From the IMG/VR virus record IMGVR_UViG_3300010352_000625, positions 96,001-160,000 of that record: a stretch of DNA of 64,000 nt. The stretch is one strand, 5' to 3'. Below, piece by piece: positions 2,824 through 48,553 of this stretch (position 1 is the stretch's first letter; every line of letters starts with the position of its first letter). The stretch is from a virus. Lineage: Duplodnaviria; Caudoviricetes. The position numbers and the translations under genes are program-made. The notes beneath the pieces are model-generated. The model worked only from the letters and a program-made list of their open reading frames with translations. It had not been told where the DNA came from and ran no database searches.

Positions 2824-4785
2824 ATGTCTTTAAATATAACAACAATGAAAACAAGACTTATTTGGAACGAATATCTACCTCATGCTGAGAGTTTAATATA
2901 TCCTTATATAAGTTTCGATAACGGAATATCTTGGATGGATATTAAAGATGAGGTTGATTATTTAAGAAATGTTGGAGAGAGACATCTAAATAATATATCA
3001 ACAAAAAATGGTATTACCGAAATGGATATATCTGTTGGTTTTACTCCTTATTCAATACCAACAATAGAGAAATTAGAATATGTTATGGCTGGTGATGGAG
3101 TATCAACTGAAACTAATTTTATAAGTTCTACCGCAACAACTTATTATTTTGCGATAGGTGCTATAAATTATGATACTCCCGGATTATATAAAGCTGATGA
3201 AACTGAACATATAAGTTATTCCGGTCCTATTAATCCAGATACTAGTGTTCCTTATATGTCTAATGTTAAATCTATAGATATTCCTAATGATGGAAAATAT
3301 TATAATATTAATATTTATGTTAATTATCCTGAATTTGTTGAAGGATTAGCAATTTATTATGGATTAGCTAATACATCTTTAAATTTAATGTCTATTACAA
3401 ATTTACATCAAAAATTAGATGGTAGTCCTAGTTCTACTGTGATTACAGCAGGTGTTACAACATCTGTAGTTTTAGCAAATATTTTTCCATTTCCAACAGC
3501 TACAGGTACAGTAAAAATAGATAATGAATATTTAGAATATACTGCACAAGAATTTGATGGTACTAATTGGATACTAACATTAAATGCTCCTGCAACTGAA
3601 AACCATAGTGGTGAATCTACGGTTATATACTGTTTACCTGATGATACAAGACAAGTACCAGAAAAAATATACTTTTTTCCAAACACAAACAACATGATTG
3701 AATATATTAATTTTGATGCTAGTAATGTTATTGATTTGGTAGATCACTCTAGTGAAATGGATTATGTATCCCCATCAACCGTAGGAACAATAGAATATTC
3801 AACTTTCATGAGTAAATTTAGACAAAGTTATAAATTAGTTGGTAACACATGTATAAGAACAAATTTATCAGCTACTAATAGAAATGCAATTAAAGATACT
3901 GGCTCAATACATTTTTATTTAGCATTATCTTCTTTTGATGATAGTAATACAGACCCTTACATATTTGGAACTTATGATACAACAGGATTATATTGTAGAA
4001 TAAGTAAATTTAATTCTAAACCTTATTTAGGTTTTAGATTTGTTGAAGGTACTGAAATAGTTGATACTACTATATTTAGTTTTGAAGATTTTAGAATTCC
4101 TGTATTGAAAAAAAGTGAATTTAGTGATATAGGAATAGCATGGTCAAAAGACACTGATAATAATATGATATTCTATCTTGTAATTGATGGTATAACTAGT
4201 ATTCAAACTAAGACAACTATTTCATCTACAGATTTTGATTTAGGTGCAATAGATATAGGTGGTTTATATAATGGGTCAAGTGTTGTAAATAGCTTTGTAG
4301 GTTATTTAGATGATTGGAGAATATATAATAAGAATTTAGCTGACGGTAGTTATAATATTATGTTTGCTGATATAAACAAAAATCATTACCAAGATATTAA
4401 TAGATTTGCAGGTAAAATAAAATTAGGAACTGAATTTATTGATGTTGATGCAACATTAGCTAGCTATGATACAGCTTCAGCAATGAATTTATTATCTGAC
4501 GAAACTGCAAGTGGTGGAGATACATATTATACCCCTGCATTTTATACTAATGTTTCTTTACCTTATAGTGCTACATATGAAATCGATGAGCCTTTAGTTA
4601 AATATGATAATTGGGTAATATCTAGTTATATAGCAGGTGGTTGGACTAGTTTAGTTACTAATATTACATATCCAGTGAGACCGGAAACAATTAAAATTAA
4701 ATATGAATTATTAGATGATAATACTGGATTTTATACTCCTATTTTAGGCAATCCATCAGTAATAATCTCAGAAATGACAGTGTAG
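2824..4785 (+). CDS. Virion structural protein with LamG-like domain
   Basis: 653 aa; IGG...FVGYLDDWRIYN LamG-type motif; lies in the structural operon. Confidence 0.6.
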   Translation: MSLNITTMKTRLIWNEYLPHAESLIYPYISFDNGISWMDIKDEVDYLRNVGERHLNNISTKNGITEMDISVGFTPYSIPTIEKLEYVMAGDGVSTETNFISSTATTYYFAIGAINYDTPGLYKADETEHISYSGPINPDTSVPYMSNVKSIDIPNDGKYYNINIYVNYPEFVEGLAIYYGLANTSLNLMSITNLHQKLDGSPSSTVITAGVTTSVVLANIFPFPTATGTVKIDNEYLEYTAQEFDGTNWILTLNAPATENHSGESTVIYCLPDDTRQVPEKIYFFPNTNNMIEYINFDASNVIDLVDHSSEMDYVSPSTVGTIEYSTFMSKFRQSYKLVGNTCIRTNLSATNRNAIKDTGSIHFYLALSSFDDSNTDPYIFGTYDTTGLYCRISKFNSKPYLGFRFVEGTEIVDTTIFSFEDFRIPVLKKSEFSDIGIAWSKDTDNNMIFYLVIDGITSIQTKTTISSTDFDLGAIDIGGLYNGSSVVNSFVGYLDDWRIYNKNLADGSYNIMFADINKNHYQDINRFAGKIKLGTEFIDVDATLASYDTASAMNLLSDETASGGDTYYTPAFYTNVSLPYSATYEIDEPLVKYDNWVISSYIAGGWTSLVTNITYPVRPETIKIKYELLDDNTGFYTPILGNPSVIISEMTV

Positions 4786-4800
4786 GATGGTGTTATATTT

Positions 4801-5052
4801 ATGATAAAACAAAGAGATAAAAAAACGGGAGCAATTAGTTTTATACCTACAGCTGAAGATTTAGAAAAAAATAGATTAAATATCAGATTAGATGAAATGG
4901 AAAGAAAAATAAAGTATCTTGAAAATTTAATTATAGATATTAAAAAAGAAGATATTGTTGATGAACCTAAAGTTGAATCTGTTGAATCAACAACTAAAAC
5001 AAAAAGAAAAAATAAAACAAAATCTATAGTTGGAGATATTAATAATGACTAA
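4801..5052 (+). CDS. Small coiled-coil protein (RDxxTGAI motif) of baseplate operon
   Basis: 83 aa; QRDKKTGAI followed by a coiled coil. Confidence 0.5.
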   Translation: MIKQRDKKTGAISFIPTAEDLEKNRLNIRLDEMERKIKYLENLIIDIKKEDIVDEPKVESVESTTKTKRKNKTKSIVGDINND

Positions 5053-6181
5053 TTTACAAGTGAAAATAAAAAAAGACGTTTCTTTTCGTGATGTATTAAA
5101 TGATTTTGATAAAGTATTAACATCTATATCTGATATTATTAAATTAGATTTAAGTAATACTCTTGAATACCCAACATTAGAAGTTACTGGTGATATGTCT
5201 AGTGTTGGTATTGTTGCTATATCTACAGAAAAATTAGCAACGCCAAGAAATATTAATATTGTTGGAGAACTTTTAGGAACATCTTCATTTGATGGAACTA
5301 GTGATGTTAATATTAATACAAGAGTAGTTAAATTATATAATACAAATATAGATAATATATTTGAAAATATTGATGGAAATATATATAGCAAATATGCGGT
5401 AAATGCCACTACTAGTGGATTAGCAACAAGTGCCACATCTGCTCTTAGTGCTGAATCATCAACTAATAATATATTCACTATACCTAAAGATGGTGTTACA
5501 GTTGGTGGGGCTTTACATTTAGAAGGTACTGGCACAAATAAAACAATTGCTATAGAGAACAATAATCAAGTATTACAAATATATGGTGTTGATTTAACTG
5601 GTGGAAATACATTAACATATAATCCAAATAGCGGAGAATTGTCAGCATTAACTTTTAATGGTACAGCAACTAATTCAAATAAAATAGCAGGGGTTACATG
5701 TAACAATGAATTAACACCACCTACTGGTACAGATAGATTAAATGTTGAGGGTTATATATATGCAACTAGAACTTATGTAACCGAAAGTTCCGACTATGCT
5801 GAATGTTTTGATAGTAATGGATTAAAATATGATGAAGTTAAAAATAGAATAGTTGAAGTTGATGAGAATGGTAATTTACAATTAGGAACATTTGCTAGTA
5901 AACGTGTTATAGGTATAGTATCAGATAATTATGGACATCTATTGAATGGTTCAGAAGATGAAATTAAAAATGGAACTAAAATACCTATAGGATTAGCTGG
6001 GGTACTTTATGTGGATTCCAAAGATAAAGTTGAAAAAGATAATATTGGAAATCTAATATGTTCTGATAATGATGGTTATGCTAAGATTCTATTCTATCCA
6101 ACTTTTGGAATAAACGTAGGTAAAATTATAGGTGTAGACGAAGAAAATAATAGATATAAAGTTTTGATAAGTTTATTATAA
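5030..6181 (+). CDS. Tail fibre protein with C-terminal intramolecular chaperone-like domain
   Basis: KLATPRNI...FDGTSDV fibre repeat; SDYAECF...IGIVS...PIGLAG chaperone motif; paralog of 14699-15922. Confidence 0.7.
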   Translation: MEILIMTNLQVKIKKDVSFRDVLNDFDKVLTSISDIIKLDLSNTLEYPTLEVTGDMSSVGIVAISTEKLATPRNINIVGELLGTSSFDGTSDVNINTRVVKLYNTNIDNIFENIDGNIYSKYAVNATTSGLATSATSALSAESSTNNIFTIPKDGVTVGGALHLEGTGTNKTIAIENNNQVLQIYGVDLTGGNTLTYNPNSGELSALTFNGTATNSNKIAGVTCNNELTPPTGTDRLNVEGYIYATRTYVTESSDYAECFDSNGLKYDEVKNRIVEVDENGNLQLGTFASKRVIGIVSDNYGHLLNGSEDEIKNGTKIPIGLAGVLYVDSKDKVEKDNIGNLICSDNDGYAKILFYPTFGINVGKIIGVDEENNRYKVLISLL

Positions 6182-41441: not shown

Positions 41442-42731
41442 TTATCTGTCCATTTTTAATCTACGATATATTGGAAATCTCAAACTAAAATTACCATCAC
41501 TGTTTTGTGAAATCTCTTGATATTTAATCTCAGCTAATTTTCCGATAAATGTATCTTTATTTTTCCAGAAATAGTCTCTATCTTCATCACTAAATCCAGA
41601 CCCGCACTCTGTTTTAATAATTTTACCACCATCTGAATACCCTTCGCATATAATATTACCCATGGTATTACTATACTTTCCTTCACCTGCTACCATACCA
41701 ACAATAGTTAAATCCATTTCACTGAAAAATTTAAATTTAATCAAATTATTACTACGTTTAAAATCATAATATACATCAGGATTTCTTAGCATTATACCTT
41801 CATATCCCTGTTCTACAAACTGTCTAGCCAAATCCTTAATTCTCTCTGTATTGTTATCAATCTTAACAGCCTGAACAAAATCTAAAGTATCAAATAGTTT
41901 GTGTTTACTATTATCATTTATAAAATCTTCAATAGTTTTCTGCATATCTTCAGTTATTTTAAAATTATCACTACCACAAGCAAAGATATTAAATCTAATT
42001 TTGTTTTTTTCATCTGAATTATAATTAACTGTTGCCATAACTACTCTCTGGATTTCATTAAATTCAATATCTTTACTATACAATTCACCATCAATAAAAG
42101 TGATATCAGGGTATAGATTACGTATTTTATTTAAATCTTCAATGATATGTTTCATACCTACAAATTTTTTACCTTGTCTACTATGCAAAGAATCGGGGCA
42201 ATTACAATTCCAAAAAGCTCTGATGCCATCTAGTTTAGGAGTAGCGTACCAATATTTGTTTTTATATTTTTTATTTTCATCATATTTATTTGCTAATTGA
42301 ACTTTAAAATCTGGAAGGAAATTTTTCCCAAATGCTTTATTTATTAGACTAACTCCAATGTTACAACGTAAATCTCGTTTAAGTATATTAATAAAAATTT
42401 CCTGAGATTCTTTATCTAATTTACAACCAACAATATCTACAGATTCTCTAGCTGTATTACCAGTGATAACTCTATTCATTAGATTATTCAATAAATCAAA
42501 TATATCAGACCACATATCAACTATATTACTAGTTCCAATTGTTGAGAAACTATCTACATTAGCAATATAAAAATTAAAGTCTGTGTTATAAGTCATGTTA
42601 ATAATATCTTTAAATAACTCATTATTGATATTCTCTTTGATTATTTTAATTTTATCATTAGTGCTGGAAGTGTTAGTTATTTTCTGTATAATATTATAAA
42701 TTTCATTTTTATCCATCTTATAACCTCCCAT
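41442..42731 (-). CDS. ATP-dependent DNA ligase
   Basis: KLDGIR, FIDGEL, EGIML, KFK, GSGF, LRFP. Confidence 0.92.
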   Translation of the reverse strand: MGGYKMDKNEIYNIIQKITNTSSTNDKIKIIKENINNELFKDIINMTYNTDFNFYIANVDSFSTIGTSNIVDMWSDIFDLLNNLMNRVITGNTARESVDIVGCKLDKESQEIFINILKRDLRCNIGVSLINKAFGKNFLPDFKVQLANKYDENKKYKNKYWYATPKLDGIRAFWNCNCPDSLHSRQGKKFVGMKHIIEDLNKIRNLYPDITFIDGELYSKDIEFNEIQRVVMATVNYNSDEKNKIRFNIFACGSDNFKITEDMQKTIEDFINDNSKHKLFDTLDFVQAVKIDNNTERIKDLARQFVEQGYEGIMLRNPDVYYDFKRSNNLIKFKFFSEMDLTIVGMVAGEGKYSNTMGNIICEGYSDGGKIIKTECGSGFSDEDRDYFWKNKDTFIGKLAEIKYQEISQNSDGNFSLRFPIYRRLKMDR

Positions 42732-43178: not shown

Positions 43179-44813
43179 TTAAATATTACCTTTACTAAAC
43201 TCAGCGATAATATTAGGAACACTAGCATCAAAACCAGCTATATCTAGCATACCCTTATCTTCTGGGTCAGCAATACTAAAATTGGTTGCCTCTGTAGCAC
43301 AAACTATCAACTTAGTATCCAGCTTCATCTTTTCTCTGTAATTCTTTAGCCCGGCAAATGGGTGAGTTCTTCCACACCAAGTGTCATTGTCAGTCCATAC
43401 GTTGAATACGTCAACTTCTATATTATTCTTCAAGGCCCAGTTAATAGCCGCTGAACAATCTGTACCACCCCAATTACTTCTTACAACCTTCTTACAAACT
43501 GAATCTAGTTTATCTGTCTTTGTTATACCTAGGTCAACAACTTCATCACAAAAACCAACTACATGTACATTAGGTTCAGTCTTTAGTAGTATCATAGACA
43601 TTGCCGCAGTTACTTCACAACTTCTAAGATTAGTGTTATTTATTGTTGAACTCATTGAACCAGATACATCAAGAGCTACCAGATATCTCTTGTTAGTTGG
43701 TTCAACATTATCAAACGCAAGATAAAAAGCATCTTCCAAAGCTGATTCAATTGCTGGTACTGGTGTCCAACTATTACTACCTCTAAATCCTTCACCAGCT
43801 GAATAAGTCTTCAATGCTATTAATATATTAATAGGATGTATTCTTGACTTGCGTATAACTTCCTTATTGCTCAAAGTCTTACATACCATCATAGTACCCT
43901 TGCTTAGTGGTGCCAAATAACCAATCATAGTCATTTTAGCTAGATTTCTAACTAGTGCTGTTATAGGCATAGTACAGTTTTCACCATCATTAGACATCAA
44001 AGCTTCCCATATATCAACTTCATTAAGCAACTGAGTTGGTACAGTTTCTCTAGGCATATTATATTTCTTTATCAGCTTAACAGCGTTCTTAACTGTATCA
44101 CCAGACATTTCTGACAGATACTTTTCAAAATTCATACCAAGATTAAACTGGTCTATTGCTGAATTAGTATCATCCAATACAGGAAGTACTTCATCATAAC
44201 CCTTTACAATCTTGTTGAATATATAAGCCATATCATTATTCGTAGCTACTGGATGTGAAAGAGCTATGGTATCCTTATGTGTCCAACCTTCACGATTCTT
44301 GTACTTAATTACCTGATATACCAACTGACTAGTATTCTTATCCAAATACCAATTAGCTATACACTTTCTAAGACCTCTACCCCAACCACGAAACTTCTGT
44401 ACGTCTTCTACAAACTGAAACAGATGTGTAGCAGTACGACATACCTTATTAAGATTTCTAAAAGCATAAGCCTTAACATCAGCATTACCAAAGGCACTAG
44501 CCAATGCCATCACAAATATTGCTGAGTCATTCTTAGGTGCTCTACCTGCATCACTTATCTTAACAGTTTCATATACTACTCTACAACCATCCTGTTCAAT
44601 AAGCTTCAATACATTTTCAGCATTTTCCTTAGACAACACTGAACCCTTAACATAATAAGAATTCTTTTCTGAACCCAATATTAGGAATCTATTTAGTCTA
44701 TCCCAATCACTAATTGTAAATACATATCCACCAGCGTTATTCTTAACCTGATTCTTACCAAATACTGATTCTGTTTGTGGAACATTTGTGATTATATCTG
44801 AATACTTTGTCAT
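43179..44813 (-). CDS. Ro60 / TROVE-vWA RNA-binding protein (Rsr ortholog)
   Basis: QVKNNAGGYVF, RFLILGS, GWGRGLR, KY.NR.GW.HKD, MP.TALVRNL, HPI, vWA DVSGSM, TDNDT, D..MLDIAGFD. Confidence 0.93.
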   Translation of the reverse strand: MTKYSDIITNVPQTESVFGKNQVKNNAGGYVFTISDWDRLNRFLILGSEKNSYYVKGSVLSKENAENVLKLIEQDGCRVVYETVKISDAGRAPKNDSAIFVMALASAFGNADVKAYAFRNLNKVCRTATHLFQFVEDVQKFRGWGRGLRKCIANWYLDKNTSQLVYQVIKYKNREGWTHKDTIALSHPVATNNDMAYIFNKIVKGYDEVLPVLDDTNSAIDQFNLGMNFEKYLSEMSGDTVKNAVKLIKKYNMPRETVPTQLLNEVDIWEALMSNDGENCTMPITALVRNLAKMTMIGYLAPLSKGTMMVCKTLSNKEVIRKSRIHPINILIALKTYSAGEGFRGSNSWTPVPAIESALEDAFYLAFDNVEPTNKRYLVALDVSGSMSSTINNTNLRSCEVTAAMSMILLKTEPNVHVVGFCDEVVDLGITKTDKLDSVCKKVVRSNWGGTDCSAAINWALKNNIEVDVFNVWTDNDTWCGRTHPFAGLKNYREKMKLDTKLIVCATEATNFSIADPEDKGMLDIAGFDASVPNIIAEFSKGNI

Positions 44814-44854
44814 TTCTTATTACCATCCTTTATTTTTGATTTATTTTTAGATAT

Positions 44855-44897
44855 AAAAAAACACCTTATAGCTATAAAACTAATCAGGTGTTTTTTT
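44855..44897 (-). terminator. Terminator-like hairpin between the RNA cluster and the Ro60 start
   Basis: Minus strand AAAAAACACCTGATTAG...CTATAAGGTGTTTTTT. Confidence 0.55.
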
Positions 44898-44920
44898 ATC
44901 TTGTTATATATTTAAATAAT

Positions 44921-45054
44921 ATTTTGGATAATTATTGCAGATTGGCTTAAAAATCATTCGATTTTTTATTGCTCAATTACAATTTGTGGAACAAGGTTAC
45001 ATATATTCATTCTGTATGTTAGAATTAGATAACCAACCTGCTCCGACCCAAAAT
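44921..45054 (-). ncRNA. Y-RNA-like RNA 1
   Basis: AUUUUGGGU-C-GG..GCAGGUUGG-UUAUC ... CCAAUCUGC..UU-AUCCAAAAU: terminal stem with bulged C, adjacent to Ro60. Confidence 0.75.
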
Positions 45055-45064
45055 GTATTATGAT

Positions 45065-45155
45065 ATATATTAGATAAAAAAGCGAAAAACAATTTATAAA
45101 TTAAATTGTATTATTAATCATCCTATGATAATTGTTCTTCAGCGACCCAATATAT
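45065..45155 (-). ncRNA. Y-RNA-like RNA 2
   Basis: AUAUAUUGGGU-C-G..GAAGAACAA-UUAUC ... UUGUUUUUC..UU-AUCUAAUAUAU. Confidence 0.75.
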
Positions 45156-45217
45156 TAAGTTTTCAATGTTACATATATTAACTTATATTAATTTATAAAT
45201 TTTAAACATTATTTTAT

Positions 45218-45318
45218 GTGAACTAATTACAGTCTAAAGACTGTAATCTTCCTGATTCATCGACTACAGATTTCGCATAGTCTCCACAGGCTTGAATTCC
45301 CTAGGTATTTGATTTTAT
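45218..45318 (-). mobile_element. IS200/IS605 mini-element copy B (internally deleted)
   Basis: Same right end and core as copy A; left flank TTAC. Confidence 0.75.
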
Positions 45319-45362
45319 GTAACTTAAAATCTAATAAATAGATTTTATTATACAAAAATTAA

Positions 45363-45442
45363 GTTAGATAATTGTTGAAAAACAGATGTTTTCTGTTTAT
45401 AATTTATAAGATTATATGATAACTGTTTTTCTTCGACCCAAC
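45363..45442 (-). ncRNA. Y-RNA-like RNA 3
   Basis: GUUGGGU-C-GAA-GAAAAACAG-UUAUC ... CUGUUUUUC..UU-AUCUAAC. Confidence 0.75.
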
Positions 45443-45459
45443 ATATTTATTAAAATTGG

Positions 45460-45670
45460 CTGGGAAACATTTAAGTTTTACGGGGAAAAACTATCCCCAA
45501 CCCAAATTTACTAAGTTAATGATTGGCGTTATATAGAATGGTAACATAGATAAGACTATATAACATTTGATAGCATAGTACCCGTAAATTCCTGAAGCCA
45601 ACCAATTCAGTATTCCTATTGGTATTGGTGTAAACGATATTATGTCTATGCCCATAATAGGATAAAAAAT
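45460..45670 (-). ncRNA. Unassigned structured RNA, copy 1 (pseudoknot module plus stem module)
   Basis: Homologous to 45788-46005 with compensatory substitutions. Confidence 0.6.
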
Positions 45671-45681
45671 ATTTAAATTAA

Positions 45682-45751
45682 TGGCAGTCGAATGAAGATT
45701 CGAACTCATTATAAATCGCACTTGATTGATAATCGATTACTACGACCCAAC
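45682..45751 (-). ncRNA. Y-RNA/tRNA hybrid (Y-type 5' end, T-arm, 3' CCA)
   Basis: UUGGGUCG-UAGUAAUCGA-UUAUC...GAGUUCGAAUCUU...UCGACUG-CCA. Confidence 0.6.
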
Positions 45752-45787
45752 TTATATTATTAACTTATATAAATTTAAAAATTAACT

Positions 45788-46005
45788 AACTTGGGATAAC
45801 TTCAATGAAGTTTTACAATCATTCAGGCGGGGGAGCCAGACCAACCCAAGTTTTTAAAGAACGCTGACATTATATAGAATGATTCATCTAGATAAGACTA
45901 TATAACATTTGATAGTATAGTACCCATAAACTTCTGAGGTCAGCTAACCCAGTACTCTATTATAATAACGATATCATAGCTATACCTACGATAGGATGAA
46001 AAACA
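45788..46005 (-). ncRNA. Unassigned structured RNA, copy 2
   Basis: See copy 1. Confidence 0.6.
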
Positions 46006-46198
46006 TCAATAATTCAATATAGCTGAGTATAGTACACAAAGGAAATGATTTGTAAAAATAAAATGATTGAATTTTTTCGCATTACATAATAATTTACTTT
46101 TTAATTTCTTTATTAATAAAAATAATATTTGATAAGTTTAAAAATTATTTAATATATTCTCTCAGCTATATTGAATTGTCAATGTTCATAATTATAAT

Positions 46199-46282
46199 TG
46201 GTGGGAGCGAAGGGAGTCGAACCCTCAAGCCTTGCGGCGAGACATTTTAAGTGTCTTATGTATACCATTCCATCACGCTCCC
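46199..46282 (-). tRNA. tRNA-Leu(TAA)
   Basis: Cloverleaf, long variable arm, CCA. Confidence 0.9.
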
Positions 46283-46372
46283 AATATATAATAAAGATTT
46301 ATGTGGGCTAACCAATTTTTGGTTTTACAGGATTTATTACCAAACCCACAAATTTAAGGAATTTAATTATTT

Positions 46373-46714
46373 TTATCCCCAGTATTTATCAGTTCCGTTA
46401 GCAACTACTCTTTTATAATTTTCACATGGGCAAATATTTTTAAGTGACAATGAGGAATTAATATAGCTTTTAAGAAATTTTTCGATATACAGATTACTTC
46501 TCTTATCAGCGTTCATTTTTTCAATAACTTGTTTAATCCAAGAAATTTTCTTTTCTTTAGTTATTGAAAAATCATGATTCAACCAAGATGTTATATTGCT
46601 TACAACATTTTTGTTTATTTCAGTTGATGCAAAATCGATTTTCTTAATAGCATCCCAATTACCGCTTTTAACAAACTTATTGTTTTCATCTCTAAAATTA
46701 AATCTGTAATTCAT
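46373..46714 (-). CDS. Hypothetical protein, first ORF after triple promoter
   Basis: 113 aa; GAGGAA RBS. Confidence 0.6.
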   Translation of the reverse strand: MNYRFNFRDENNKFVKSGNWDAIKKIDFASTEINKNVVSNITSWLNHDFSITKEKKISWIKQVIEKMNADKRSNLYIEKFLKSYINSSLSLKNICPCENYKRVVANGTDKYWG

Positions 46715-46837
46715 ATCAAATTCCTCCTCATTTCGATTTTTTGTTTGTTCTTGCTTGATATAAAGAGTATATCATGATATTGTTGGTTTGTCAAGTATTA
46801 ATTTAAAAATTAATTAAAAAATATTTTTTAATTAACT

Positions 46838-46994
46838 GAGAGTTTTAGTTGTTCTCAGCAACAAACATATTATATCATGTTTTTACTGTTTTGTCAAGTG
46901 TTAATTTTTGTTTATTTTTAATCTTTTTTCGTTTGAGAGTTTTAGTTGTTCTCAGCAACAAACATAGTATATCATAGTTTATATAATTTGTCAA
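46838..46994 (-). repeat. Tandem duplicated promoter plus leader unit
   Basis: tgagagttttagttgttctcagcaacaaacata.tatatcat...ttgtcaag occurs at 46838 and 46934. Confidence 0.8.
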
Positions 46995-47018
46995 GCACTT
47001 TATTTTTGTAGAGTTTTA

Positions 47019-47792
47019 TTAATTTTTTAAACTAAATTTAATATTCTTTTTTGCTTCTTCAATTCTATTTTGTGCTATATTAAAATAATTTTCATCTAAT
47101 TCAATACCTATAAAATTTCTGTTAGTATTAACGCAAGCTACGCCAGTTGTGCCAGAACCCATACAATTATCTAAAACCAAATCTTCTTCATTGGTATAGG
47201 TCTTAATTAGATATTCCATTAGTGCTACGGGTTTTTGTGTTGGATGAATGGTACTGCCCAATTTTTCTCTATTTATATTTAATATATCACAAGGGTATCT
47301 ATATCCAGTGTCTTCATAGGGCTTAATTGACAAAATAGGAGAATTAGATGCAACCACAGATTTAAACTTGGCATTTTTTTCACTTGGTTTATTTGTTACC
47401 TTTTTACCATTATGTTTAACCATTTGCGGATTATAAGTACATTGCTTTTTATAAAACACACATATATTTTCAGTTAGTTTTCCCACTCTCTTTTTTACTT
47501 GCATAAAATTAGTAGGTTTTTCTTTTACCCAATATATGTCATATTTGTAATCAGATTTATTACTTAATCTTAGTTCACTACTAAATGGCTCTGTTCCAAA
47601 AAGAATGATTGCACCTTTATCTTTAATCACTCTGTTGTATTGCTCCCATAACGGCTCAAAAGGAATTATGATATCCCATTTACATGCTGTAGTTCCGTAT
47701 GGTAAATCACATAAAATCATATCTATTGATTCATCAGAAATATCTTTCATTTTCTCTAGACAATCACCATGCATTAATCTAATCTCAGACAT
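47019..47792 (-). CDS. Beta-class N4/N6 DNA methyltransferase
   Basis: CDLPYG, HPTQKP, LDNCMGSG. Confidence 0.9.
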   Translation of the reverse strand: MSEIRLMHGDCLEKMKDISDESIDMILCDLPYGTTACKWDIIIPFEPLWEQYNRVIKDKGAIILFGTEPFSSELRLSNKSDYKYDIYWVKEKPTNFMQVKKRVGKLTENICVFYKKQCTYNPQMVKHNGKKVTNKPSEKNAKFKSVVASNSPILSIKPYEDTGYRYPCDILNINREKLGSTIHPTQKPVALMEYLIKTYTNEEDLVLDNCMGSGTTGVACVNTNRNFIGIELDENYFNIAQNRIEEAKKNIKFSLKN

Positions 47793-47800
47793 TACTTACC

Positions 47801-48553
47801 TCACTTAAATTTAATATTCTTTTTTGCTTCTTCAATTCTATCTTTAGCTATATTAAAATACTTTTCATCTAATTCAATACCGATAAAATTTCTGTTAGTA
47901 TTAACACAAGCTACCCCTGTACTACCTGAACCCATTGTAAAATCAAGAACTAGTTCATTTTCGTTAGTATAGATTTTTATTAGATATTCCATTAGTGTCA
48001 CTGGTTTTTGTGTTGGATGTAAATGACCCTTTCCACTTGGGTTTGAAAAGTTCAACAGACTATCTTGCCAACCAGTATGTGTGGTTTTATGTTCTGTTTT
48101 CCCTGCAACTCCTAGTCTGTGTTGTTCATCATTTCTTAATCTTGCTCTACCAGATTTTATTGGAGTATCAAGTTCTATAAGATTTTGTTGATTAAAAGTT
48201 GGTTGTTTTTCATAGAAAACAAGAATTTCCTCGTGTTTTCTCATGGGCATTTTTTTAGCGTTTTGAAAACCGCTTGATTTTGTTTTTATCCAAGAATAAT
48301 CATACTTAAACATCTTAATATTACTCATAATCAAAGCACTTGTAAAAGGCTGTGAACCGAATAAAACTATAGCCCCGTTAGGTTTAATAACTCTTTTCAA
48401 CTGCTCCCACATCGACTCAAAAGGAATAACACTATCCCATTTACACGCAGTTGTGCCATAAGGTGGGTCTGTTATAATGGCGTCAATTGATACATCAGGG
48501 ATATCTTTCATCTTATCAAGACAATCACCTTGTATCAATCTAACCTCAGACAT
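47801..48553 (-). CDS. Beta-class N4/N6 DNA methyltransferase (tandem paralog)
   Basis: TDPPYG, HPTQKP, LDFTMGSG. Confidence 0.9.
   Translation of the reverse strand: MSEVRLIQGDCLDKMKDIPDVSIDAIITDPPYGTTACKWDSVIPFESMWEQLKRVIKPNGAIVLFGSQPFTSALIMSNIKMFKYDYSWIKTKSSGFQNAKKMPMRKHEEILVFYEKQPTFNQQNLIELDTPIKSGRARLRNDEQHRLGVAGKTEHKTTHTGWQDSLLNFSNPSGKGHLHPTQKPVTLMEYLIKIYTNENELVLDFTMGSGSTGVACVNTNRNFIGIELDEKYFNIAKDRIEEAKKNIKFK

What the first reader, a model, noticed from the sequence alone, without database searches (positions are those of the whole stretch)
45460..46005. Two copies of an unassigned pseudoknotted RNA with clear covariation inside the Ro60 RNA cluster
Seen: ~210-nt units at 45460-45670 and 45788-46005 align with compensatory changes (minus strand). 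GCAUAG/CUAUGC becomes GUAUAG/CUAUAC. Hairpin CUGAA/UUCAG becomes CUGGG/CUCAG. Its loop GGUUGGC pairs with downstream GCCAAUC in copy 1, and GCUGAC pairs with GUCAGC in copy 2, forming a pseudoknot. UUAUAUAG/CUAUAUAA is invariant, with linker UAUCAAAUG. Each unit ends in a stem module UGGGUUGG...GUAAAACUU...CCCA that resembles the Y stem with C changed to U. I could not match it to riboswitch or ribozyme consensus sequences I know. Inference: a new ncRNA class, possibly a self-cleaving or processing element that releases individual Y RNAs, or another Ro60 ligand.
Basis: partly seen in the sequence, partly recalled or inferred. Interest (0 to 1): 0.85.

Follow-up and report, generated by a model that had tools for sequence, protein, structure and literature searches.

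The report
Pseudoknotted RNA pair beside phage Ro60
A 207-kb phage carries, between its tRNA genes and its Ro60/Y-RNA genes, two diverged copies of a non-coding ~200-nt RNA that probably folds into two interlocked pseudoknots and matches no known RNA family, but it occurs only in this one narrow phage lineage and its function is unknown.

Summary
Two paralogous minus-strand units are present (core 45997-45862 with module 45848-45792; core 45663-45521 with module 45504-45461).

The units are non-coding. Rfam 15 gives no match even at E<=10.

The covariation is real but weaker than "clear". It rests on one paralog comparison: six double compensatory changes. A naive count is not significant in this AU-rich sequence (P 0.19). 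Requiring mutually compatible helices gives P about 0.005-0.01, and the RNAalifold column-shuffle z is -4.1.

Close relatives (Ro60 >=90% identical) carry one copy-2-type unit. It always lies downstream of the tRNA genes (23 nt after tRNA-Leu in one relative) and directly upstream of the Y RNAs. Their few variants mostly keep pairing through wobble pairs, with one mismatch.

Nothing similar turned up in 80 other Ro60 phage loci, two complete related genomes, T4 rnaC/rnaD or a metagenome pattern scan.

The 3' "Y-like" module is a separable three-way junction. It occurs three times in the genome and lacks the Ro60-binding CGAA motif.

Best reading: a lineage-specific structured RNA of the tRNA/Y-RNA transcript, possibly a Ro60-linked adaptor. 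Self-cleavage is unsupported. The scan found it on no other DNA.

The parts
45862..45997 (-). Copy 2 core (136 nt). Hairpin H_A 45993-45987/45978-45972. PK1: H_A loop 45985-45980 with 45920-45915. Hairpin H_B 45952-45948/45938-45934. PK2: H_B loop 45944-45939 with 45868-45863. Hairpin H_C 45906-45898/45877-45869.
   Evidence: Sequence; alignment A4 and pair counts; CM R1 167 bits; RNAalifold picks H_A, PK2 and H_C on its own.
45792..45848 (-). Copy 2 module: three-way junction. Closing stem (C)UUGGG/CCCAA(G), hairpin 1 GGC/GCC, junction GUA, hairpin 2 AACUUC/GAAGUU.
   Evidence: Pattern scan; alignment A7; closing stem predicted by RNAalifold.
45521..45663 (-). Copy 1 core (143 nt). H_A 45659-45653/45644-45638. 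PK1 45651-45646 with 45578-45573. H_B 45610-45606/45596-45592. PK2 45603-45597 with 45527-45521. H_C 45564-45556/45536-45528. It has 8 extra nt between H_A and H_B.
   Evidence: CM R1 142 bits. Found only in the window's genome and in identical contigs L096 and L097.
45461..45504 (-). Copy 1 module: UGGG/CCCA closing stem, hairpin 1 GGGG/CCCC, junction GUA, hairpin 2 AAAC/GUUU.
46304..46348 (-). Stand-alone third module (S3), between the 113-aa ORF and tRNA-Leu: GUGGG/CCCAC closing stem, junction GUA, hairpin 2 AACCAA/UUGGUU.
   Evidence: The pattern TGGGTT..GTAAAAC..CCCA occurs only at these three sites in the 206,669-bp genome.
46199..46282 (-). tRNA-Leu(UAA), upstream of the units on the same strand. 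In relative L091 it ends 23 nt before the core.
   Evidence: ARAGORN and Rfam; sequence of L091.
45682..45751 (-). Y-d. Its 5' half is a YrlA-like Y RNA (UUGGGUCGUAG...). This is joined to a tRNA-like T arm, acceptor strand and CCA. The leader and copy 1 follow directly.
   Evidence: Sequence compared with the intact Y-d' of relatives L091 and L093.
45355..45441 (-). Y-a, a Y RNA (UUGGGUCGAAG matches GNCGAAN0-1G). It lies directly downstream of the unit in the window and in the relatives that lack the 117-aa ORF insertion (L091, L093, L105); in L090, L092 and L109 that ORF lies between them.
   Evidence: motif definition from PMC4201824.
43179..44813 (-). Ro60 gene (TROVE plus vWA_Ro60), 650-1200 nt downstream of the units on the same strand.
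   Evidence: Pfam E 1.9e-63 and 4.9e-41.

Best explanation
The two units are diverged paralogs of a lineage-specific, non-coding, stable structured RNA.

Each unit has two parts. The first is a ~140-nt core of three hairpins. The loops of the first two hairpins pair with segments further 3', giving two interleaved H-type pseudoknots. H_C, PK2 and H_B can stack into one long helix. The second part follows a ~13-nt linker: a separable 45-60-nt three-way-junction module whose terminal stem resembles that of the local Y RNAs.

The unit lies on the same strand as the phage tRNAs, Y RNAs and Ro60 and is probably co-transcribed with them. Its 5' side starts right after a tRNA or tRNA-like CCA end, so tRNA-processing enzymes would release it.

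Inferred, not shown: it works with the Ro60 system as a Y-RNA-like adaptor. The module or the adjoining Y RNA would supply the Ro60 contact, and the pseudoknotted core would bind another partner, much as Yrn1 or Yrl RNAs tether Ro60 to PNPase.

Shown: repeat, strand, non-coding nature, shared fold, synteny. Inferred: transcription, processing, any Ro60 link.
For: - The two copies match only each other in the genome.
- 97.5% of cells pair and six pairs change on both sides; slid controls reach at most 47%.
- Compatible-stem permutation tests give P 0.005 and 0.011, and the alifold shuffle gives z -4.06.
- RNAalifold recovers H_A, PK2, H_C and the module stem without guidance.
- Several G-U pairs would be A-C mismatches on the other strand, which fits a minus-strand RNA.
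- In relatives, both changes in the H_B loop (C to U, A to G) keep PK2 through wobble pairs. G12 to A in L112 turns a G-U into A-U in PK1.
- There is no conserved ORF.
- In every relative the order is tRNAs, unit, Y RNAs, Ro60.
- The module pattern occurs only three times in 207 kb, all in this cluster.
- Phage Ro60 with upstream Y-like RNAs that recruit host PNPase is documented (PMC12135203).
Against: - Only two paralog types exist, so the six compensations represent a single divergence. A naive count is not significant (P 0.19).
- Among close variants, L112 has a C x A mismatch in H_A. Overall 5 of 7 changes at paired sites preserve pairing, which is not significant by itself.
- The module lacks the GNCGAAN0-1G / CGAA Ro60 motif.
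- Module S3 stands alone after an mRNA, which suits a generic stability or processing hairpin as well as a Ro60 handle.
- No homolog lies near any of 80 other phage Ro60 genes, so there is no conserved Ro60 association beyond one lineage.
Confidence: 0.42

Rival explanations
1. It is a stable structured RNA of the phage tRNA operon that has nothing to do with Ro60. It would be analogous in context to T4 rnaC/rnaD, which are small stable RNAs processed from the tRNA transcript and have no known function. Its place next to the Y RNAs would follow only from the tRNA and Y-RNA genes sharing one RNA-gene island.
For: The core starts 23 nt after tRNA-Leu in L091. Copy 1 follows a tRNA-like T arm, acceptor strand and CCA. 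tRNA arrays lie directly upstream in all longer relatives. The module lacks the Ro60 motif. T4 has two stable RNAs at the distal end of its tRNA cluster.
Against: There is no sequence or CM similarity to T4 rnaC/rnaD. The unit has no tRNA-like 3' end, whereas both T4 RNAs have one. The module's terminal stem copies the local Y-RNA stem (UUGGGU ... UUAUCCC).
Confidence: 0.25
2. There is no selected structure. The units are a duplicated AU-rich spacer. The apparent helices and compensations are what a search finds by chance in low-complexity sequence, and the long identical tract reflects gene conversion between the paralogs.
For: The null model gives 3.7 compensatory pairs on average when stems are counted freely. 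MFE z-scores of the single sequences are weak (-2.3 and -0.2). The diversity is a single split. L112 has a mismatch in H_A.
Against: The compatible-stem tests give P 0.005 and 0.011, and the alifold shuffle gives z -4.06. Two separate loops each find a 6-7-nt complement at the same aligned place in both copies despite 2-4 substitutions on each strand. Substitutions avoid the linkers and fall in the helices.
Confidence: 0.13
3. It is a self-cleaving ribozyme or other cis-processing element that separates the RNAs of the cluster.
For: The fold is an interleaved double pseudoknot with invariant joining strands, in the style of small ribozymes. It sits between RNA genes that must be cut apart.
Against: No Rfam ribozyme family matches at E<=10. 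The strand order differs from HDV-like, pistol and twister topologies (my comparison from known architectures, not a test). A tRNA or tRNA-like CCA end on the 5' side would already give the host enzymes a cut site there. No candidate cleavage site is conserved in a recognisable way.
Confidence: 0.05
4. It is a guide-RNA scaffold or other RNA of a mobile element, such as a TnpB/IscB omega-RNA relative. The genome carries an IS607-type TnpB and solo right ends, one of them 150 nt downstream of copy 1.
For: A 92-bp solo right end with the RAGATH-18-like k-turn hairpin lies at 45306-45215. Copy number varies between relatives: one copy or two.
Against: The units share no similarity with the TnpB 3' region or right end. 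There is no TnpB, IscB or other nuclease gene next to them. The second copy is explained by recombination in a T arm, not by transposition. Rfam HEARO and RAGATH models do not hit the units.
Confidence: 0.03

Closest known systems
Bacterial and phage Y RNAs (Yrn1, YrlA/YrlB, phiLo Yrl1/2)
   Same: Encoded within 1.2 kb upstream of Ro60 on the same strand, among true Y RNAs. Modular build. The 3' module has the local Y-RNA terminal stem (UUGGGU paired with ...CCCA).
   Different: No GNCGAAN0-1G / CGAA motif and no T or D arm. The Y-like stem is a self-contained 3' hairpin rather than the pairing of the RNA's two ends. The 140-nt pseudoknotted core has no counterpart in Y RNAs.
T4 rnaC / rnaD (species 1 and 2 stable RNAs of the tRNA cluster)
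   Same: Small non-coding RNAs of unknown function at the distal end of a phage tRNA array, presumably cut from the tRNA transcript.
   Different: No sequence or covariance-model similarity. The T4 RNAs end in tRNA-like T arm/CCA structures; the units do not.
Small double-pseudoknot RNAs (HDV-like, twister and glmS ribozymes; flaviviral exonuclease-resistant RNAs)
   Same: Compact fold of short helices locked by two pseudoknots, with invariant joining strands.
   Different: The strand order is different: both pseudoknots are of the hairpin-loop-to-3'-segment type and are interleaved. No Rfam model matches. No catalytic or nuclease-blocking activity is shown.
TnpB reRNA/omega-RNA (RAGATH-18) right ends in the same genome
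   Same: Structured non-coding repeats dispersed in the same RNA-gene island.
   Different: Unrelated in sequence. The true right-end copy is a separate 92-bp element at 45306-45215.

Membership tests
Y RNA / YrlA | GNCGAAN0-1G (CGAA) motif near the 5' end, tied to Ro60/Rsr binding (PMC4201824; PMC12135203) | tested here: not met
   Neither core contains CGAA. The modules read UUGGGUUGGGG and UUGGGUUGGUC, whereas neighbouring Y-a reads UUGGGUCGAAG.
Y RNA / YrlA | Terminal stem formed by the 5' and 3' ends of the RNA, enclosing an internal loop and a second stem | tested here: inconclusive
   The module has a Y-like closing stem, but it encloses a small three-way junction and sits at the 3' end of a larger RNA. 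The true RNA ends are unknown.
Y RNA / YrlA | tRNA-like T and D arms (YrlA) | tested here: not met
   Rfam tRNA at E<=10 and ARAGORN hit only tRNA-Leu in 44000-48000. There is no UUCGAAU-type T loop in the units.
Y RNA / YrlA | Encoded within about 4 kb of Ro60 on the same strand | tested here: met
   The units lie 650-1200 nt upstream of Ro60 (43179-44813) on the minus strand.
Y RNA / YrlA | Physically bound by Ro60 | not testable with these tools
   Needs immunoprecipitation or gel shift.
Known self-cleaving ribozymes (hammerhead, HDV-like, twister, twister-sister, pistol, hatchet, hairpin, glmS) | Match to the family covariance model | tested here: not met
   cmscan of 44000-48000 against all 4227 Rfam 15 families at E<=10 gives nothing inside 45455-46005.
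Known self-cleaving ribozymes (hammerhead, HDV-like, twister, twister-sister, pistol, hatchet, hairpin, glmS) | Site-specific self-cleavage | not testable with these tools
   Needs an in vitro transcription and cleavage assay.
TnpB omega/reRNA (RAGATH-18-derived) | Similarity to the 3' end or right end of a TnpB element, ending at the element terminus (TCAC) | tested here: not met
   The units match only each other in the genome. The right-end repeats are the separate 92-103-bp elements at window 45306-45215, near 49.8 kb, and beside TnpB at G000 about 181.0 kb.
T4-type tRNA-cluster stable RNAs (rnaC/rnaD) | Sequence or structure similarity, and a tRNA-like 3' end | tested here: not met
   R1 with filters off on the T4 region gives a best hit of 8.9 bits, outside rnaC/rnaD. 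The T4 sequences end in a T arm or CCA.
Protein-coding gene | Open frame conserved between copies, with substitutions biased to the third codon position | tested here: not met
   Copy 2 has 4-7 stops in each of the six frames. Substitutions fall 13/10/11 over codon positions of ORF 45491-45721. Relatives lack that ORF.

The most novel reading that the evidence does not exclude
The core is a new functional RNA fold with an activity of its own, deployed by a phage next to its Ro60/Y-RNA system. Candidate activities are a new self-cleaving ribozyme, an exoribonuclease-blocking knot that protects or shapes the neighbouring tRNA and Y-RNA transcripts, or a new high-affinity ligand that recruits a host RNA-decay enzyme to Ro60.
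Probability: 0.12. Interest if true: 0.8.

Novelty: new variant of a known kind. Interest (0 to 1): 0.48.

Why it matters
Phage Ro60 systems are barely understood. One 2025 study shows a phage Ro60 with two Y-like RNAs binding host PNPase.

If this RNA is a Ro60 partner, it would show that phage Y-RNA arrays carry effector domains well beyond the tRNA-like module known from YrlA. It would also give a compact (~140 nt), doubly pseudoknotted RNA to test for a binding partner.

If it is unrelated to Ro60, it is one more orphan stable RNA of a phage tRNA operon, like T4 rnaC/rnaD. Those two have stayed unexplained since they were first described.

The narrow distribution limits the general impact.

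Tried and rejected
Searches for homologs, all negative beyond close kin:
- Exact and degenerate DNA patterns of the conserved core in IMG/VR gave nothing or chance coding hits.
- A pattern scan of JGI metagenomes gave only near-identical relatives plus three chance hits.
- blastn against 50,697 phage records matched only tRNA-Leu.
- blastn of the units against 85 loci gave nothing.
- CM R1 over 80 IMG/VR Ro60 loci and other loci (973 kb) gave nothing better than E 0.33, and that hit lay inside a Ro60 ORF.
- R1 over two complete genomes of the nearest IMG/VR Ro60 relatives gave nothing.
- R1 on the T4 tRNA/rnaC/rnaD region gave nothing.
- Looking for intermediate relatives through the helicase gene gave only two short, near-identical contigs.

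Ideas rejected:
- A helix CCUAU/AUAGG closing the 5' part. The A-to-C change in L090 and L091 breaks it, and it competes with the covarying H_A.
- Homology with the TnpB right end (no similarity).
- A hammerhead-like reading of CUGAAUGA...GUAAAAC in the copy 2 module (absent from copy 1).
- Coding potential of ORF 45491-45721.

Not built: a covariance model of the module alone. MAFFT misaligned S3 by one column, and the model would have carried little information.

Full report
**Setting.** The window is positions 96001-160000 of a 206,669-bp AT-rich IMG/VR phage record. It has 18 tRNA genes on the minus strand. ORF 43179-44813 (minus) is a full Ro60 (TROVE E 4.9e-41, vWA_Ro60 E 1.9e-63).

Read on the minus strand, the region upstream of Ro60 runs in this order:
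- a 113-aa ORF (46714-46373);
- a small stem module, S3 (46348-46304);
- tRNA-Leu(UAA) (46282-46199);
- about 190 nt of AT-rich DNA with a weak promoter-like site (TTTACA-16-TACTAT, 9 of 12; promoter-like sites are no commoner here than in shuffles);
- unit copy 2;
- Y-d;
- unit copy 1;
- Y-a;
- a 92-bp insertion-sequence right end;
- Y-b and Y-c;
- a hairpin with a U run;
- Ro60.

**The observation.** The two units align at 78% identity. They are the only matches to each other in the genome (E 3e-22).

I split each unit into three pieces: a core (copy 2 45997-45862, copy 1 45663-45521), a ~13-nt linker, and a 3' module (45848-45792, 45504-45461).

The core has five helices:
It reads UAUUAUG/CAUAAUA in copy 1 and UAUCGUA/UAUGAUA in copy 2. 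Its loop is the GYAUAG strand.
- PK1, that loop paired with CUAURC about 65 nt downstream.
- H_B, the hairpin CUGAA/UUCAG or CUGGG/CUCAG.
- PK2, the H_B loop paired with the segment that directly follows H_C.
- H_C, an invariant 8-bp hairpin plus a ninth pair (G with U or C).

H_C, PK2 and H_B can stack into one long helix, and H_A with PK1 into another.

**Is it more than chance?** On the six-sequence alignment A4, 97.5% of cells pair, against at most 47% when partners are slid. Six pairs change on both sides.

All six come from the single split between the two paralog types, and the helices were read off these same sequences, so I built a null that includes the search. I kept copy 2, moved the 34 substitutions to random positions of the same base, and looked for all stems of at least 5 bp conserved in both sequences.
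- Counting compensatory pairs freely is not significant: observed 6, null mean 3.7, P 0.19.
- Requiring the stems to be mutually compatible gives P 0.005.
- Two disjoint stems with at least two compensations each gives P 0.011.
- The RNAalifold energy of the two paralogs is 4.06 sd below column shuffles, 0 of 300.

RNAalifold on whole units recovers H_A, PK2, H_C and the module closing stem unaided. The fold is therefore probable, but "clear covariation" overstates the evidence.

**Relatives.** The Ro60 protein belongs to a 90% cluster of 107 sequences. The next relatives are only 53% identical.

Contigs of cluster members (L090-L093, L105, L106, L109, L112, L114) carry one unit of the copy-2 type at 94-97% identity. 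Copy 1 occurs only in the window's genome and in identical contigs.

Variants at paired sites:
- A/G at two positions gives A-U or G-U.
- C to U and A to G together in the H_B loop both keep PK2 as wobble pairs.
- C to U in H_A gives U-G.
- G to A at column 12 makes A-U with U92, which extends PK1.
- U to C in L112 gives a C x A mismatch in H_A.

Five of seven changes preserve pairing. That is compatible with the fold but not significant alone. The H_C loop is the most variable part.

**Not coding, not a known family.** ORF 45491-45721 overlaps copy 1 only. Copy 2 has 4-7 stops in every frame, and substitutions fall 13/10/11 over codon positions. Rfam 15 gives nothing in 45455-46005 at gathering thresholds or at E<=10.

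**Distribution.** I built model R1 from A4 (135 positions, 20 bp). It finds:
- both window copies (167 and 142 bits);
- nothing credible in 80 IMG/VR Ro60 loci with 5-kb flanks, or in L003-L005;
- nothing in two complete genomes of the nearest IMG/VR relatives;
- nothing in T4's tRNA/rnaC/rnaD region.

Pattern scans of IMG/VR and of the JGI metagenomes return only close kin or chance hits. L005 (Ro60 53% identical) has rich arrays of Y RNAs and tRNAs but nothing like the unit. The RNA is confined to one isolated lineage.

**Context that bears on mechanism.**
- In L091 the core starts 23 nt after tRNA-Leu.
- In the window, Y-d is a chimera. It has the 5' half of the YrlA-like Y-d' of relatives, joined at the T arm to a tRNA-like T arm, acceptor strand and CCA. 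A leader similar to the one after tRNA-Leu follows, then copy 1.
- The second copy therefore arose by recombination in a T arm. The ancestral layout was tRNA, leader, unit, Y RNA.
- This fits one transcript cut by tRNA-processing enzymes, with no need for self-cleavage on the 5' side.

**The module.** The pattern UGGGUU...GUAAAAC...CCCA occurs only three times in 207 kb, all here. The three copies share a closing stem, a junction GUA and a second hairpin that starts AAAC and covaries (AAAC/GUUU, AACUUC/GAAGUU, AACCAA/UUGGUU).

Its stem resembles the Y-RNA terminal stem. It lacks the GNCGAAN0-1G / CGAA motif linked to Ro60 binding (PMC4201824; PMC12135203). S3 stands alone after an mRNA, so the module may equally be a generic protective or processing hairpin.

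**Verdict.** This is a real, duplicated, non-coding element with a probable doubly pseudoknotted fold and no known family.

- Most likely reading: a stable structured RNA of the tRNA/Y-RNA transcript. A Ro60-linked adaptor role is plausible by position and by the Y-like module, but it is untested (0.42).
- A Ro60-independent tRNA-operon RNA is the main rival (0.25).
- Chance structure remains possible (0.13).
- A ribozyme (0.05) or a mobile-element RNA (0.03) has little support.

Noticed in passing
window 45215-45306 (minus): A 92-bp solo right end of the genome's IS607/IS605-type TnpB element lies between Y-a and Y-b. It contains a k-turn hairpin that scores 32 bits on RAGATH-18 (below threshold) and ends in TTCAC. 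It is 90% identical to the region just after the TnpB gene at G000 about 181.05-181.14 kb, and 97% identical to a copy inside the tRNA-His region (window about 49.8 kb). Relatives lack it here: the Y-a to next-Y spacing is 189 nt in them and 291 nt in the window.
   Followed up: partly
window 45682-45751 (minus); L091:1928-2070: Y-d of the window is a chimera. The 5' half of a YrlA-like Y RNA is joined at the T arm to a tRNA-like T arm, acceptor strand and CCA. Relatives have the intact ~145-nt Y-d' with its own 3' strand. This marks the recombination that created unit copy 1.
   Followed up: partly
L090:3006-3385; also L092 and L109: Some relatives have a 117-aa ORF with its own ribosome-binding site (no Pfam or PHROG match) inserted just after the unit's module. 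A 37-39-nt repeat of the module's 3' half follows the ORF.
   Followed up: partly
window 46016-46027 and 46161-46172 (minus): A perfect 12-nt inverted repeat (AAUAUAGCUGAG / CUCAGCUAUAUU) brackets the ~130-nt AT-rich stretch between tRNA-Leu and copy 2. L091 lacks this stretch; there tRNA-Leu abuts the unit leader. It may be a small insertion.
   Followed up: no
L005:143-1362 and 4364-5940: A phage contig with Ro60 53% identical carries two arrays totalling seven GGGUCGAA-type Y RNAs. They are interleaved with tRNAs and YrlA-like T/D-arm RNAs. The first Y RNA of each array lies behind a tandem pair of near-consensus extended -10 promoters. An IS607 TnpB and a Gad2 gene are also present.
   Followed up: no
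window 41442-42731 (minus): An ATP-dependent ligase (DNA_ligase_A_M plus OB domain) lies about 450 nt downstream of Ro60 on the same strand.
   Followed up: no
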